Part shown: one piece after another, positions 12,387-28,537 of the stretch | How positions within the stretch are numbered: the first letter of the stretch is position 1 | Layout: each line of letters begins with the position of its first letter | Source of the DNA: Planctomycetota bacterium | Lineage (GTDB): Bacteria > Planctomycetota > Planctomycetia > Pirellulales > UBA7805 | Assembly (NCBI GenBank): GCA_014237955.1 | Contig: JABABY010000006.1 | Location: forward strand, 1-32,218 | Reading direction: 5' to 3' | Length of the DNA: 32,218 bases | Made by a program: the position numbers and the translations under genes | Notes under the pieces: model-generated | Seen by the model: only the letters and a program-made list of their open reading frames with translations | What the model was told of the DNA's origin: nothing | Database searches by the model: none

Positions 12387-12745
12387 GGGGGCGAACTGGG
12401 TTCGACCGGATAGCCTGAAGTGGAAGTGGCGTGCCGTGGTTGGTCAGTTGGCCACGTTAAAAGCTGACCACACTATTTATTTGCCGAAGGTAACTTCGCA
12501 ATGGCCGCCTAGAGATAGGCGTCCCTGGCTGATGGCTTTCGTCGGAGAGGCCTGAAAGCTGGTCACCAATTCCGAATCGCCTGAAGTCACTGCTGGGCAC
12601 GCTTCAGGTTAAACCAGTTCCCGGCTAGCGCGGGTGGCATCCTGTCGATTGGAGTCCACACGAGCGAGAATTAAACAATCGACTACGCACGTAGAAGCTT
12701 TCATGAAAATATCGCGGGACGCGGGTTCGATTCCCGCCGCCTCCA
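12387..12745 (+). ncRNA. ssrA: tmRNA (transfer-messenger RNA)
   Basis: 5' GGGGGCG pairs with 3' CGCCTCC-A, including the G3:U alanine determinant. GGTTCGAC near the 5' end, T-arm GCGGGTTCGATTCCCGC, internal tag ORF, 359 nt. CCA not encoded. Confidence 0.95.
12483..12512 (+). other. tmRNA proteolysis tag reading frame (A)AEGNFAMAA*
   Basis: GCC GAA GGT AAC TTC GCA ATG GCC GCC TAG after an AT-rich resume context, ending in Ala-Ala. Confidence 0.85.
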
Positions 12746-12832
12746 CTTGTAGGGATCCCTTCCTGTAAATACCGAACGCTCTCGCTCAGTTTGCGTGTGC
12801 GCCGAGACAATCTTTAATACTCGGAAGACAAA

Positions 12833-24376: not shown

Positions 24377-24451
24377 GGTGGCTATAGCTCAGTTGGTTAG
24401 AGCGCCGGATTGTGGTTCCGGAGGCCGGGGGTTCGAGTCCCCTTAGCCACC
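24377..24451 (+). tRNA. tRNA-His(GTG)
   Basis: G(-1)GTGGCTA acceptor pairs with TAGCCAC-C. D-arm GCTCAGTTGGTTAGAGC, anticodon arm CCGGA-TTGTGGT-TCCGG, T-arm GGGGGTTCGAGTCCCCT. CCA not encoded. Confidence 0.97.
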
Positions 24452-24618
24452 CTCAGCGGGACGGCCCTCCCCCTGGAGTACTTATCACCCGCTCGCACAT
24501 AACCCGCATTGGAAGAGATACTACAATAAGAGAATGGGAGACTCCGAAACGCTGGGAGCTTCCCCCAATGGACACCATAATTAATCGCATACGTATGATC
24601 TCTAGCTGAAAAATCAAT

Positions 24619-25407
24619 ATGTCCACTGAAGAGCTGCAAATTTGGGAACGCGCTGAAGCGGAGCGGAGCAACTCTGAAGCATCAAAGATCAACACAGAGG
24701 AACTCCGATCGAAGGAAATTAATATTCAACGTTATCTCGATCCGCCTGCCGATACCTGGCATCCACTCGAATATTCCTTTCACCTTCTTGGTGACATCCG
24801 TGGCAAAACGGTACTTGAATATGGGTGTCACGACGGGGCCAATACCGTCGTCTTGGCGCTTCGTGGAGCAGAGGTCAAAGCGATCGATATTTCACCTGAC
24901 TTAATCGATATTGCTCGTAAGTGACTGATCGCTAATGAGGTAACGGCCGATGTGGAATTTATCGTCGGTTCGGCTCATGACGTACCCCTGCCAGACGATT
25001 CAGTAGACATTGTATTCGGCATGGCAATTTTGCATCACCTAGAGCTTGCGCTCTCCGCGCGTGAAGTAAAGCGTGTGCTACGGAAAGGTGGGCGGGCGAT
25101 CTTCCGGGAACCTGTCCGAAATTCGAAGATGGCACAATATCTTCGCAAGTTAATTCCGTATCAAGGTCGCAATGTGTCGCCTTTTGAGCGCCCTTTGACC
25201 GATAAAGAATTGGCTGTCTATGCGAGTGGCTTTGCTTCCTACCGCACTAAGGCCTTTAAGTTGCCAACAAGCGATTTGGTTGCAGTCATACCCCCACTGC
25301 GAAAATATTTTTCTCGAGCCACTCAGAAAATGGATGCTACCATATTAAAACATTGTCGTTGGCTCAATTATTATGCCGGAGTGCGAGTCATCGAGTTGGT
25401 TAAATAA
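24619..25407 (+). pseudogene. Class I SAM-dependent methyltransferase interrupted by one in-frame TGA (24922-24924)
   Basis: The two ORF-track pieces share a frame: ...VLEYGCHDG...AIDISPDLIDIARK*LIANEVTADVEFIVGSAHDVPLPDDSVDIV...RVLRKGG; 262 aa if read through. Confidence 0.75.
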
Positions 25408-25878: not shown

Positions 25879-25928
25879 TGCTGGCGAGTAAAATTTTCAC
25901 CAGCGCAATTTTCCAAAAAAACAACACG

Positions 25929-26010
25929 GTTTTTCAGAAAAACTGCAATACCGCCCATGTGGAAAAAGTATATAATCGGTAGCGTTCGATCGATGCGTTT
26001 CATTTAGGAG
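25929..26010 (+). promoter_or_regulatory. Promoter/RBS region of the HMA gene with inverted repeat
   Basis: Inverted repeat GTTTTTC-A-GAAAAAC (25929-25943), TATAAT (25971-25976), AGGAG (26006-26010) 9 nt before ATG 26020. Confidence 0.45.
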
Positions 26011-26019
26011 ATCATTTCT

Positions 26020-26376
26020 ATGAAGCTTTTACACAACATGGCATTTGGCGGAGCCCTGTTTGCTGTTTTGGCCTTCCTGGGATGCGGGCAACAAGGCTCA
26101 GCACCAGAAGCGTCTTCGGCATCCGCAAACTTGAACAATGTGGCTGCGGCATCCAACCTGCCCAGCCTTACCCTTGCTATTTCCGGCATGACCTGACCAG
26201 TAGGTTGTAAGCCTCGGGTCGAGGCCGCGCTCAAAAAGGCACCTGGTGTCAAAAATGTACAGGTCGATTTTGCAACGAAAAAAGCAGTCGTCACCTTTGA
26301 CAACAAAGGTAATGATGGAAAATCGTTGATAGAATCTCTCAAAGAAGCCGGATTTGGTGGCGAGGTGGTCAACTAG
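26020..26376 (+). CDS. Probable selenocysteine-containing heavy-metal-associated (HMA; MerP/CopZ-like) lipoprotein
   Basis: Manual translation: MKLLHNMAFGGALFAVLAFLGCGQQGSAPEASSASANLNNVAAASNLPSLTLAISGMT(TGA)PVGCKPRVEAALKKAPGVKNVQVDFATKKAVVTFDNKGNDGKSLIESLKEAGFGGEVVN*. TGA (26194-26196, codon 59) sits at the first Cys of GMTC. Lipobox Cys22, RBS, SECIS-like hairpin. Confidence 0.85.
26194..26230 (+). promoter_or_regulatory. Bacterial SECIS-like element
   Basis: TGA, 14 nt, then GCCTC-GGGTC-GAGGC (26211-26225). The G-rich apical loop contains GGUC and begins about 20 nt after the UGA. Confidence 0.7.
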
Positions 26377-26470
26377 ATCAACAATATTCCATGCTGTCGT
26401 ACACGCCGACTCCAAGCGGTACCGCGGAAATCTCTCGCTGAGATGGATGGGTGCCGCTTTTTTCGTTTGA

Positions 26471-28537
26471 TTACTTCTTCGGCCGTTTTCGCTTACTCTT
26501 CCTCGGTTGCTGTCCGGATGAAGGCCTCTCCGGACGATAGCCCGCACCCGCCTTGTTGCGGGACTGACGTTTCTTTTTATTGGATGCTTTCTTGCCATCG
26601 ATTCCATGTACGTAATGGCCCTCGTGCTCCTGATTCGCTTTATGCCGCCGCCCCTCAATGGCCTCTCTCGGCGGCCGAGATGCAATTAGGGCGTCGCAAC
26701 CAGAGCCGATCAAATCCTGGCGACCCACTTTTTCGAGTGCTTTGCGTACCTGAAAATAGTTTTCCGGCTTGAAAAACTGCATCAGCGCCCGCTGCAACTT
26801 GCGATCCCGCAGGTGGCGCGCGATGTGGACTTCTTTTCCCGTAAAGGGATCGAGACCCGTGTAGTACATGGCGGTCGCCACATCGAACGGCGCCGGAATA
26901 AAATCCTGTACCTGATCGGGGCGATAACCGGTTCGCTTGAGAAAGACCGCCAGATCGATCATAGCATCCAAATCGCTACCCGGATGACTGGCGATGTAAT
27001 AGGGAATCAAGTACTGCTTCTTGCCCGCGCGCTTGGATTCGCCCTTAAAAATTTTGGCAAACTCCTCAAAATCATCGTTGGACGGTTTGCGCATCAGAGC
27101 GAGCACATGCGGATCCGTATGCTCTGGGGCTACCTTCAGGTGCCCCCCCACGTGATACCGGGTGAGATCACGCATGTATTCGGGGGACCGACGGGCGAGA
27201 TCCATCCGAATTCCGCTCGCTACAAGCGCCTTTTTGACTCCGGGTGTTTTGCGGACATCTTTCATCAACTGCACCAGCGGCCCATGGTCGGTTCCCAGTA
27301 ATTTACAAATCGTCGGATGCACGCACGATTGGCGACGACAAACGGCTTCGACTTCTGGTCGTACACACCGCATCTGATACATGTTGGCCGTGGGGCCGCC
27401 GATATCGCTGATCACTCCTTTGAACCCTTTGTCTTTCGTCATCGTGTCCACTTCGGTCTGGACCGACTGACCGGATCGTGATTGGATAATACGTCCCTGG
27501 TGGGTGGTGATCGAACAGAAGGTACAACCGCCGAAACAGCCTCGCATGATTGTGACCGAGTCCTTGATCATCTCAAAAGCAGGAATCGGTTCGCTGTAGG
27601 AAGAATGTGGTTTGCGGGTATACGGAAGTGCATAAATAGAATCCATCGAACGTTCAGAAATCGGCAGCGTGGGTGGATTGGCAACCACGGCCTGACGATC
27701 ATGCCACTGAATGAGACGCCGGGCGTTGTACGGATTTGTTTCGTTGTGGATGATCTTGGTCGCACGGGAAAAGGCTACTTTGTCATCAAGGACTTCTTCG
27801 TAACTCGGAATGGTAATGGCATCCTCTGGGGGCGTCTCCGAAGCCCCCATGGCATAGGCAACACCCCGCATGTCGCGAAGATCGCGAACTGTCTCTCCCG
27901 CATCCAGGCGCCGCGCGATCTGCAAAATCGATTCCTCTCCCATTCCAAAAGCGAGTATGTCTGCTTTGCAGTCAAGAAGAATCGAGCGCCGCACCTTATC
28001 ACTCCAATAGTCGTAATGGGCAAGCCGCCGCAGAGATGCCTCCACGCCACCGGCAATCACGGGAACCCCCTTAAATGCCTCACGAGCGCGTTGACAGTAG
28101 GCGAGCGTCGCCCGATCAGGGCGCATGCCAATCCGACCCCCCGGTGAATAGGCATCGTCATTACGAACCTTGCGGTTCGCCGTGTAGTGATTGATCATCG
28201 AATCCATGTTGCCCGCGCTAATTGCATAAAAAAGGCGCGGACGGCCAAACGTTTTCCACGGCTCACAGCTATGCCAATCGGGTTGCGACACAATACCCAC
28301 ACGAAAACCGGCCGCCTCTAACACGCGGCCGAGAATAGCGGCTGCAAAACTCGGATGGTCGATGTAGGCATCGCCTGTTACAAAAACAACGTCAACCTGA
28401 TCCCAGCCGCGATCGTTCATTTCGGCACGAGACATTGGCAGCGGCTTTGCTGCCTGGTCGAGCGCAAGATCTTCCAGGATTGCACCAGTCTGTCCGGCAG
28501 ATGCAAGAATCGGAAGTCGGTCCTGGGGAGGCAGCAT
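26471..28537 (-). CDS. ygiQ: YgiQ (UPF0313) family radical SAM protein
   Basis: [57 protein letters not shown] (CxxxCxxC), [24 protein letters not shown]. Confidence 0.93.

What the first reader, a model, noticed from the sequence alone, without database searches (positions are those of the whole stretch)
26020..26376. Hidden selenoprotein: HMA metallochaperone-like lipoprotein with a GMT-U-xxx-C motif
Seen in sequence: an RBS-led 118-aa frame absent from the ORF track, with a lipoprotein signal (FLG-C22), an Ala/Ser/Asn linker and a complete HMA fold. Its single in-frame TGA falls exactly at the first metal-ligand Cys of GMTC, and the rest of the domain is intact. Established: HMA domains (MerP, CopZ, Atx1) bind Hg(II)/Cu(I) through GMxCxxC, and UGA plus a 3' SECIS encodes Sec in bacteria. 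Some Sec-containing MerP-like/HMA proteins have been reported. Inference: this is a membrane-anchored, extracytoplasmic selenolate metal binder with three-residue U-x3-C spacing and no cognate transporter next to it. It could be a stand-alone Hg/Cu/Ag scavenger or chaperone in a planctomycete, which standard annotation would drop or call a pseudogene.
Basis: partly seen in the sequence, partly recalled or inferred. Interest (0 to 1): 0.88.

Follow-up and report, generated by a model that had tools for sequence, protein, structure and literature searches.

The report
Selenocysteine metal-binding lipoprotein of marine Pirellulales
This is a real gene, cut in two by standard annotation, for a small membrane-anchored metal-binding protein that uses selenocysteine instead of cysteine as its first metal ligand; it is a new, well-conserved variant of a kind of selenoprotein that is already known.

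Summary
Window 26020-26376 (+) is a 118-codon frame with one in-frame TGA (26194-26196). It lies at the first metal-ligand position of an HMA domain (GMT-U-PVG-C), behind a lipoprotein-type signal ending in Cys22.

The TGA is not a nonsense mutation.
- It sits at the same codon in all 7 orthologues found in the genus (41-93% identity) and in relatives from 6 further families of the order. Other homologues have Cys there.
- A hairpin starts 14 nt after the TGA (26211-26225). All its synonymous sites are frozen in 7 of 7 orthologues, while 18 of 19 other conserved degenerate codons vary.
- The 62.5%-complete genome has tRNA-Sec, SelB and SelD. SelA was found only in 3 of 4 genus relatives.
- TGA ends 6 of 19 long frames in the window, so the code is standard.

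A second in-frame TGA in the window (methyltransferase, 24922-24924) aligns to Arg and is not conserved. It serves as a negative control.

Public protein sets hold the gene as 58-aa and 39-aa fragments.

Sec-containing HMA/MerP-like proteins are already known. The one-residue-longer U-x3-C loop, the lipid anchor and the Pirellulales family, which includes U-x3-U forms, appear undescribed. The bound metal is not known.

The parts
26006..26010 (+). Shine-Dalgarno-like AGGAG, 9 nt before the ATG
   Evidence: Read directly from the sequence. Similar GGAG motifs precede the start in orthologues.
26020..26376 (+). Full coding sequence of 118 codons plus TAG, with one in-frame TGA
   Evidence: The whole frame is conserved in relatives.
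26020..26085 (+). Lipoprotein-type signal peptide: Lys2, a hydrophobic core, then L-G-Cys22 as lipobox and predicted acylated Cys
   Evidence: G21 and C22 are conserved in at least 90% of 12 family members. The match was made by pattern only; no signal-peptide predictor was available.
26086..26163 (+). Low-complexity Ala/Ser/Asn/Gln linker (residues 23-48)
   Evidence: pLDDT is below 50 for residues 1-40. Length and sequence vary among orthologues.
26164..26373 (+). HMA (heavy-metal-associated) domain with a strand-helix-strand-strand-helix-strand fold
   Evidence: Pfam PF00403 at 48.9 bits, AlphaFold2 secondary structure, and Foldseek and PDB matches.
26194..26196 (+). UGA read as selenocysteine (U59), the first metal ligand
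   Evidence: It aligns to Cys in homologues. It is unchanged in contigs of independent runs.
26206..26208 (+). TGT, Cys63, the second metal ligand, at the start of helix 1
   Evidence: Invariant in 12 of 12 family members when U is shown as C. The helix starts at residue 63.
26211..26225 (+). SECIS-like hairpin with a 6-bp G+C-rich stem and a GGU loop, starting 14 nt after the UGA
   Evidence: It is identical in 7 of 7 genus orthologues although it spans five degenerate codons.
26414..26463 (+). Intrinsic-terminator-like hairpin followed by a run of six U, 38 nt after the stop codon
   Evidence: Fold of -25.1 kcal/mol, z = -3.07, with 2 of 200 shuffles folding as well. The simple terminator scan did not list it because its loop is long.

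Best explanation
Window 26020-26376 encodes a genuine selenoprotein. It is a small lipoprotein of a marine Pirellulales bacterium, exported and lipid-anchored at Cys22. A flexible linker tethers it to a single HMA domain outside the cytoplasm. The UGA at codon 59 is recoded to selenocysteine by SelB and tRNA-Sec, directed by a short hairpin that lies inside the coding sequence 14 nt downstream. The resulting selenolate (U59) and the thiolate of C63 form a two-ligand site for a soft metal ion, on a loop one residue longer than the canonical GMxCxxC. Shown here: the recoding signals, the fold, the export signal and the conservation. Inferred: the protein works as a high-affinity periplasmic binder or chaperone for a thiophilic metal. 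Cu(I) is the most likely metal and Hg(II) or Ag(I) are possible. The role looks like a housekeeping one, because the gene sits at a fixed chromosomal place in the genus and not in a resistance island.
For: (1) The TGA is at the same codon in the 7 genus orthologues (41-93% identity) and in relatives of other families; the Cys forms G034 and P0131 align exactly there. Of the 47 rows listed order-wide that cover the whole profile, 20 carry in-frame TGA and 27 carry none.
(2) Codons +5 to +9 after the UGA, which form the hairpin, are identical at every synonymous site in 7 of 7 orthologues. Of 19 other amino-acid-invariant degenerate codons, 18 vary. By my own hypergeometric arithmetic on that table, p is about 1.4e-4.
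(3) More distant relatives carry a different hairpin a few nucleotides further on. There, 83.3% of 84 cells pair against 73.2 +/- 2.8% in shuffles (0 of 500 reach the observed value), slid controls give 23-49%, and 3 of 7 pairs show changes on both sides.
(4) Sec machinery in the genome: tRNA-Sec with anticodon tca at 69.5 bits, SelB at 403.8 bits and SelD at 239.5 bits. SelA scores 556-567 bits in 3 of 4 genus relatives.
(5) TGA is an ordinary stop here, ending 6 of 19 long frames. The other in-frame TGA in the window aligns to Arg and is absent from 5 orthologues.
(6) The HMA fold and domain are intact after the TGA.
(7) The lipobox is conserved.
(8) A run X2 contig covers 26034-26246 with no difference, and a contig from an RNA library (X19) covers 26053-26203 including the TGA.
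(9) In the genus, MerT was found in 0 of 5 genomes and no MerA hit passes the cut-off, but a Cu-type P1B ATPase passes the cut-off in 3 of 5.
Against: No selenium incorporation or metal binding has been measured. SelA was not found in the window's own genome, which is 62.5% complete. The hairpin's folding energy is no better than that of shuffled sequence: z = -1.10 for 67 nt and z = -0.80 for 28 nt, so support for it is comparative only. Rfam returned no match. Lipoprotein status rests on a pattern match, not a predictor. The genus hairpin never varies, so it shows no covariation. The frozen codons also encode the invariant K-P-R-V-E peptide, although amino-acid conservation alone does not explain frozen third positions. 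The metal assignment has no direct support. One paralogue-like relative (G027, U-x2-C) sits beside a MerB-domain gene, which points to mercury rather than copper for that one.
Confidence: 0.8

Rival explanations
1. Pseudogene: the TGA is a nonsense mutation or an assembly error in an ordinary Cys-type HMA gene.
For: The frame ends at 58 aa under table 11. Another gene in the same window, the methyltransferase, really does carry such a nonsense TGA. SelA was not found in this genome.
Against: The TGA is at the same codon in 7 of 7 genus orthologues down to 41% identity, with the downstream domain under clear purifying selection. It is also present in 6 other families of the order. An independent contig carries the identical sequence.
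Confidence: 0.02
2. The UGA is passed without selenocysteine, through near-cognate read-through inserting Trp or Cys, or it simply terminates to give a 58-residue lipopeptide. The HMA part would then be made from an internal start or not at all.
For: Public gene calls give separate 58-aa and 39-aa products. No biochemical proof of Sec exists. The hairpin's energy is unremarkable.
Against: The UGA aligns to Cys, the residue Sec replaces. tRNA-Sec, SelB and SelD are present. The hairpin is frozen at synonymous sites, as expected of an RNA signal. The 39-aa calls would lack both metal ligands and strand 1. Orthologues conserve the frame across the TGA.
Confidence: 0.05
3. It is a true MerP: the periplasmic Hg(II) receptor of a mer detoxification system that hands mercury to MerT and MerA.
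For: The best NCBIfam hit is MerP at 56.6 bits. MerP is among the best structural matches. The GOS survey lists 'Mercuric transport protein MerP' as a selenoprotein family (table passage). The G027 relative lies next to a MerB-domain gene. Selenolates bind Hg strongly (established chemistry, recalled).
Against: The score is below the MerP cut-off of 92.55. MerT was found in 0 of 5 genus genomes, one of them 99% complete. No MerA hit reaches the cut-off; the best is 374 bits against 454. MerB was found in 0 of 5, but the control genomes did not ring, so that result is uninformative. The protein is lipid-anchored with an x3 loop, unlike MerP. The neighbouring genes are a deaminase and a radical-SAM gene.
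Confidence: 0.1
4. The U-x3-C pair is a redox centre, cycling between selenenylsulfide and selenol/thiol, that acts on periplasmic substrates. It would not be a metal site.
For: Most bacterial selenoproteins are redox proteins with UxxC or CxxU motifs (reviews, passages seen). The site is exposed to an oxidising compartment. The spacing is not the canonical metal-binding spacing.
Against: The fold and sequence are HMA throughout, and no redox enzyme of this fold is known to me (recalled). The Gly-Met preceding the first ligand, typical of metal-binding HMA loops, is invariant. Relatives occur beside MerB and as N-terminal domains of P-type ATPase-sized frames.
Confidence: 0.08

Closest known systems
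[quoted passage not shown]
   Same: A small single HMA-type domain in which Sec replaces the metal-ligand Cys. The profile aligns over residues 50-117.
   Different: It scores 47.2 bits against a cut-off of 95, and five relatives score no higher than 47.3. The window's protein has one Sec, not two. Its ligands are three residues apart rather than two. It has a lipoprotein signal and a linker, which the 74-position family model does not cover.
MerP (TIGR02052), and the 'Mercuric transport protein MerP' selenoprotein family listed in the GOS survey (PMC2398784, Table 2 passage: 2 sequences)
   Same: An extracytoplasmic single HMA domain with thiolate or selenolate ligands. It is the best NCBIfam hit (56.6 bits) and a top fold match. 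It comes from a marine setting.
   Different: The score is below the cut-off of 92.55. No MerT or MerA was found in the genus. The protein is lipid-anchored and has an x3 loop. I could not see the GOS sequences because supplements are closed, so they could belong to this same family.
P1B-type cation-transporting ATPase selenoproteins (COG2217, UxxC) and the NF045683 MerT/CopZ fusion selenoprotein
   Same: Sec at the first ligand of an HMA metal-binding motif (review table passage).
   Different: In those proteins the HMA domain is fused to a transporter. Here it stands alone on a lipid anchor with no transporter gene beside it. Scores are far below their cut-offs.
CopZ/Atx1 cytoplasmic copper chaperones
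   Same: The same fold and the same Gly-Met-x-ligand loop. JGI names the 39-aa C-terminal fragments 'copper chaperone CopZ'.
   Different: CopZ is cytoplasmic, has C-x2-C ligands and contains no Sec. All CopZ model scores are below their cut-offs.
Unnamed Cys-type C-x3-C HMA lipoproteins of Pirellulales and Flavobacteriia (e.g. loci L044, L046, L047, L059-L063)
   Same: The same architecture (lipobox, linker, one HMA domain) and the same one-residue-longer ligand loop.
   Different: They have Cys at both ligand positions and no frozen hairpin. In Flavobacteriia the neighbour is a divergent EamA transporter gene in 3 of 3 loci.

Membership tests
Bacterial selenoprotein (UGA recoded to Sec) | In-frame UGA aligned to Cys in homologues | tested here: met
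   The Cys forms G034 (GMTC-PGG-C), P0131 (GMSC-QFG-C) and several other Pirellulales forms align at the U position.
Bacterial selenoprotein (UGA recoded to Sec) | UGA conserved in orthologues, with the coding frame conserved on both sides | tested here: met
   Met in 7 of 7 genus orthologues. Of the 47 full-length-like rows listed for the order, 20 carry in-frame TGA.
Bacterial selenoprotein (UGA recoded to Sec) | Stem-loop shortly downstream of the UGA with G in the apical loop (bacterial SECIS; criteria recalled) | tested here: met
   A 6-bp stem with a GGU loop starts 14 nt after the UGA. Synonymous sites are frozen in 7 of 7 orthologues. The hairpin of distant relatives covaries. Caveat: the fold energy is not better than that of shuffles, and bSECISearch was not available.
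Bacterial selenoprotein (UGA recoded to Sec) | tRNA-Sec, SelA, SelB and SelD in the genome | tested here: inconclusive
   tRNA-Sec, SelB and SelD were found. SelA was not found in this 62.5%-complete genome, but it is present in 3 of 4 genus relatives.
Bacterial selenoprotein (UGA recoded to Sec) | Selenium actually incorporated into the protein | not testable with these tools
   This needs 75Se labelling or mass spectrometry.
HMA domain (Pfam PF00403) | Profile score over the gathering threshold and a strand-helix-strand-strand-helix-strand fold | tested here: met
   48.9 bits against 24.8, the AlphaFold2 topology and Foldseek target TM-scores of 0.81-0.92.
HMA domain (Pfam PF00403) | Canonical GMxCxxC metal-binding loop | tested here: not met
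   The loop is GMT-U-PVG-C: Sec at the first ligand and one extra residue between the ligands. The extra residue is a family trait, also seen in the Cys forms.
MerP (TIGR02052 equivalog) | Score over the curated cut-off | tested here: not met
   56.6 bits against 92.55.
MerP (TIGR02052 equivalog) | Part of a mer system with MerT and MerA | tested here: not met
   MerT was found in 0 of 5 genus genomes. No MerA hit passes the cut-off. The neighbouring genes are unrelated to mercury.
NF041115 UxxU metal-binding (seleno)protein | Score over the curated cut-off and a UxxU motif | tested here: not met
   47.2 bits against 95. The motif is U-x3-C.
Bacterial lipoprotein | Signal peptide ending in a lipobox with an invariant Cys (pattern recalled, not from a call) | tested here: inconclusive
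   Lys2, an uncharged hydrophobic stretch and A-F-L-G-C22 fit the pattern. The G-C pair is conserved in at least 90% of 12 members. No SignalP or LipoP run was possible.

The most novel reading that the evidence does not exclude
A Pirellulales-wide family, with Cys cousins in Flavobacteriia, of lipid-anchored HMA domains carries an expanded (Cys/Sec)-x3-(Cys/Sec) site. In this family Sec and Cys have been exchanged repeatedly at one or both ligand positions, and the recoding hairpin has been re-invented at two different places in the same helix-coding segment. In the U-x3-U members a single hairpin appears to serve two UGA codons only 12 nt apart. The family would act as a housekeeping selenolate trap that captures trace Cu(I), or Hg(II), in the periplasm of small-genome marine planctomycetes and supplies or buffers it. 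It would not be a resistance determinant.
Probability: 0.35. Interest if true: 0.6.

Novelty: new variant of a known kind. Interest (0 to 1): 0.5.

Why it matters
It adds a well-supported, taxonomically broad selenoprotein family that current gene calling splits into meaningless fragments. Selenoproteome and metal-homeostasis inventories of marine Planctomycetota therefore undercount it. It is a natural Sec/Cys and x2/x3 series on the best-studied metal-chaperone fold. That makes it useful for asking what a selenolate ligand and a wider loop do to metal affinity, selectivity and transfer kinetics outside the cytoplasm. The two hairpin designs, and the double-UGA relatives, offer a compact test case for the spacing rules of bacterial Sec insertion.

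Tried and rejected
- **Fold energy as evidence for the hairpin.** The 67-nt stretch gave z = -1.10, with 30 of 200 shuffles as good. The 28-nt stretch gave z = -0.80, with 43 of 200 as good. Energy alone gives no support, so I relied on comparative evidence.
- **Rfam scan of 25900-26500 at E <= 1.** It returned 0 matches. I do not know whether Rfam holds a fitting bacterial SECIS model.
- **Sigma-70 promoter scan.** It found 0 sites. The terminator scan listed only a minus-strand site inside the gene and missed the plus-strand terminator, which I found by folding.
- **Near-length search of the 5.8-billion protein set.** No hit at E <= 1e-5. The 'shorter' search explained why: the gene is stored as fragments.
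- **Exhaustive profile search.** It gave 41,938 hits at E <= 0.001, but the top 150 are almost all multi-HMA proteins. It cannot size this family and yielded one useful full-length Cys form (P0131).
- **SelA in the window's own genome.** Not found with PF03841 or TIGR00474. The open frame upstream of selB on its contig has no Pfam match.
- **MerB search in the genus.** It found 0 of 5, but no control genome rang, so the result is uninformative.
- **G012:C469 and G017:C37 (rows with 2 TGA).** My motif scan of the one I fetched, G012:C469 (L053), did not resolve the ligand loop. G017:C37 was not fetched. I left both unclassified, although they are counted among the 20 TGA rows.
- **RNA-library contigs.** X18 covers only the deaminase gene. 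X19 covers 26053-26203 and 26281-26427. This shows presence in an RNA library, not proven transcription.
- **Run X7.** Its 881-nt contig is a diverged strain with 43 differences. No difference is listed at the TGA, but 18 rows of that table were not shown, so I do not count X7 as proof.
- **Methyltransferase 24619-25407 as a second selenoprotein.** Rejected: Arg stands at that position in 4 aligned orthologues, and none of 5 orthologues has a stop there.
- **Tools and files not available.** GOS Dataset S1/Table S1 and the Porphyra-planctomycete S9 Table may already contain members of this family.

Full report
**What is in the sequence.** Window 26020-26376 on the plus strand reads as 118 codons ending in TAG, with one in-frame TGA at codon 59, bases 26194-26196. 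Under the standard table the frame stops after 58 residues. AGGAG lies 9 nt before the ATG. The N-terminus has Lys2, an uncharged hydrophobic stretch and L-G-Cys22. By the lipobox pattern, which I recall rather than take from a call, this is a lipoprotein signal. A low-complexity Ala/Ser/Asn/Gln linker follows.

Residues 51-112 match Pfam HMA at 48.9 bits against a cut-off of 24.8. The AlphaFold2 model, built from a 12-row alignment, has mean pLDDT 64.7, with 72-83 across the domain and below 50 for residues 1-40. It shows strand-helix-strand-strand-helix-strand over residues 49-116. The best solved-structure matches are the PacS N-terminal domain, MerP and the ZntA N-terminal domain, with target TM-scores of 0.81-0.92.

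HMMER alignments to solved HMA domains place the TGA exactly on the first ligand Cys. They also need a one-residue gap in the target before the second ligand, so the site is U-x3-C and not C-x2-C. A hairpin followed by six U lies 38 nt after the stop codon (26414-26463, z = -3.07).

**Is the TGA a stop, a mutation or a Sec codon?** Six lines of evidence bear on this.

1. *Conservation.* In 41 related genomes the frame was found with the TGA at the same codon in all 7 genus genomes that have the gene. It was not found in two further genus genomes, which are 70-71% complete. The genus orthologues are 41-93% identical. The TGA is also present in other genera, whose loops read GMTUPVGC, GMQUPVGC, GMHUPVGU and GMTUAGC, while G034 has Cys there. 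A profile search of 251 genomes of the order listed 47 rows that cover the profile from position 15 or earlier to 110 or later. Of these, 20 carry in-frame TGA(s) and 27 carry none. The TGA forms fall in 7 families of the order, and 68 further matches were not listed. Cutting out 17 of these places showed many U-x3-U forms with both ligands Sec, and Cys forms that also have x3 spacing.

2. *The RNA signal.* A 6-bp G+C-rich stem with a GGU loop (26211-26225) starts 14 nt after the UGA and is identical in all 7 genus orthologues. A codon table shows that the five codons forming it (+5 to +9) use one codon each in 7 of 7 sequences, although they are 2- to 6-fold degenerate. Of 19 other amino-acid-invariant degenerate codons between -10 and +35, 18 show synonymous variation. 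My hypergeometric arithmetic on that table gives about 1.4e-4. The third base of codon +10, just outside the stem, does vary. The only full-length Cys form from the exhaustive search (P0131) has changed two of those residues, which fits a relaxed constraint. This is a single case and its DNA was not seen.

   More distant relatives carry a different hairpin, a 7-bp stem with a 5-nt loop at nt 22-40 counted from the first UGA. On all 12 sequences examined, 83.3% of 84 cells pair against 73.2 +/- 2.8% in shuffles (0 of 500 reach the observed value). Slid controls give 23-49%, and 3 of 7 pairs have changes on both sides. One caveat applies: I derived that structure from these same sequences.

3. 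*Sec machinery.* The genome is 62.5% complete in 284 contigs. It has a tRNA-Sec with anticodon tca (69.5 bits), SelB (403.8 bits) and a SelD cut by a contig end (239.5 bits). SelA was not found in it but scores 556-567 bits in 3 of 4 genus relatives, including the closest one.

4. *Genetic code.* TGA ends 6 of 19 long frames in the window, so it is an ordinary stop here.

5. *Internal negative control.* The methyltransferase frame 24619-25407 is also broken by a TGA (24922-24924). There, 5 genus orthologues have no stop and the 4 that I aligned have Arg at that position. That TGA is a plain nonsense change.

6. *Independent data.* A contig from a metagenome run (X2) covers 26034-26246 with no difference. 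A 151-nt contig from a metatranscriptome library (X19) covers 26053-26203 with one difference elsewhere. The latter shows presence in an RNA library, not proven transcription.

**Evidence against.** The hairpin's folding energy is not better than that of shuffled sequence (z = -1.10 and -0.80). Rfam gave no match. SelA is missing from this incomplete genome. No predictor of signal peptides or of bacterial SECIS elements could be run. Nothing here measures selenium or metal.

**Surroundings.** Upstream lie a DUF1570-like gene, tRNA-His, the broken methyltransferase and a cytidine/deoxycytidylate-deaminase-family gene. Downstream, convergent, lies a YgiQ-type radical-SAM gene. That radical-SAM gene is the downstream neighbour in all 6 other genus loci. 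The upstream neighbour varies and is a HAD hydrolase in two of them. No transporter gene is adjacent.

In two other families (G028 with Sec, G034 with Cys) an ATG22-like MFS transporter gene follows in the same orientation. In G027 a U-x2-C relative follows a MerB-domain gene. In the genus, MerT was found in 0 of 5 genomes, one of them 99% complete. No MerA hit passes its cut-off. MerB was found in 0 of 5, but the controls were silent. A Cu-type P1B ATPase passes its cut-off in 3 of 5.

**How it most likely works.** The following points are shown or strongly supported:
- SelB-dependent recoding of UGA59, directed by an in-frame hairpin.
- Export and lipid anchoring through a conserved lipobox.
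- An intact HMA domain.

The rest is inferred. The selenolate of U59 sits on the exposed loop, and the thiolate of C63 sits at the start of helix 1. Together they bind one soft metal ion. Sec is deprotonated at neutral pH and is more nucleophilic than Cys (established chemistry, recalled). This should give tighter and faster capture and hand-off in an oxidising compartment.

The fixed chromosomal position in the genus and the lack of mer genes argue for a housekeeping binder or chaperone rather than a mobile resistance function. Given the Cu-ATPase in the genus, I favour Cu(I), with Hg(II) or Ag(I) possible. My rough odds are 0.9 for a genuine Sec codon, 0.7 for an extracytoplasmic metal binder, 0.4 for Cu(I) and 0.25 for Hg(II).

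**Comparison with what is known.** Sec in HMA metal sites is an established kind.
- The 2022 review lists the ATPase (UxxC), a putative mercuric reductase (UxxU) and a MerT-like protein (PMC9312934, table passages).
- NCBIfam has NF041115 and the MerT/CopZ fusion selenoprotein NF045683.

The window's protein and five relatives stay below every curated cut-off. The best scores are 58.2 against 92.55 for MerP and 47.3 against 95 for NF041115.

In the passages returned by my term searches of those three papers, and of the BSepDB, deep-Sep, Haft preprint and Porphyra-planctomycete papers, I found no mention of an HMA lipoprotein selenoprotein, of U-x3-C spacing, or of this protein in Planctomycetes. 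I read passages only and no supplements. The two GOS 'MerP' reads could belong to this family. Public protein collections hold the gene as a 58-aa 'hypothetical protein' (24 contigs) and as 39-aa pieces that JGI twice names 'copper chaperone CopZ'. The full length is absent from the near-length search.

**Verdict.** It is a new variant of a known kind, distinguished by a lipid-anchored architecture, an x3 loop, a Pirellulales family with Sec/Cys and U-x3-U members, and two hairpin designs. It is not a new kind of system. Interest is 0.5.

Noticed in passing
window 24619-25407 (+), TGA at 24922-24924: A SAM-methyltransferase frame is broken by one in-frame TGA. Five genus orthologues (54-60% identical) have no stop, and the 4 aligned have Arg at that position, so this is a nonsense change or sequencing error, not Sec. 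G006's copy is also fragmented. The gene is missing from this site in G008's locus and no match was found in that genome (82% complete).
   Followed up: yes
L048-L052, L054, L029 (G087, G057, G093, G106, G153, G119, G036): Relatives have both metal ligands as Sec (U-x3-U, two TGAs 12 nt apart). They share a 7-bp hairpin with a 5-nt loop at a fixed distance, and it shows compensatory changes. One hairpin seems to serve two UGAs.
   Followed up: partly
L028:267-1394 (G027:C70): A MerB (alkylmercury lyase) domain protein lies directly upstream of a lipoprotein HMA relative that has canonical U-x2-C spacing. This is the only mercury-linked context seen.
   Followed up: partly
L024:3-1349 (-) and L025:1887-3218 (+): An ATG22-like MFS transporter gene follows the HMA lipoprotein gene in the same orientation in two different families, one with Sec and one with Cys. 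It is a possible partner in those lineages but is absent next to the window's gene.
   Followed up: partly
L044, L046, L047 (Flavobacteriia records): Cys-type lipoprotein HMA proteins have the same C-x3-C loop (GMTC-A[VF]G-C). Each sits beside a divergent EamA-family transporter gene in 3 of 3 loci.
   Followed up: partly
window 12387-12746 (+) and 24378-24452 (+): A tmRNA gene (tag peptide AEGNFAMAA) and a tRNA-His (gtg) were found by ARAGORN.
   Followed up: no
window 26471-28537 (-): A YgiQ-type radical-SAM gene (Radical_SAM_N plus DUF3362) lies convergent to the selenoprotein gene. It is its downstream neighbour in all 6 other genus loci. The terminator-like hairpin at 26414-26463 lies just past its stop codon, between the two convergent genes.
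   Followed up: partly
P0153-P0158 (public protein clusters): Public gene calls split this gene family into a 58-aa N-terminal 'hypothetical protein' and 39-aa C-terminal pieces, which JGI twice names 'copper chaperone CopZ'.
   Followed up: yes
L057 (G176:C379:1000-2000): The N-terminal region of a P-type-ATPase-sized frame (875 aa) was flagged with one TGA. In my reading that TGA lies upstream of two ordinary C-x2-C HMA repeats and is probably just the preceding stop codon.
   Followed up: partly
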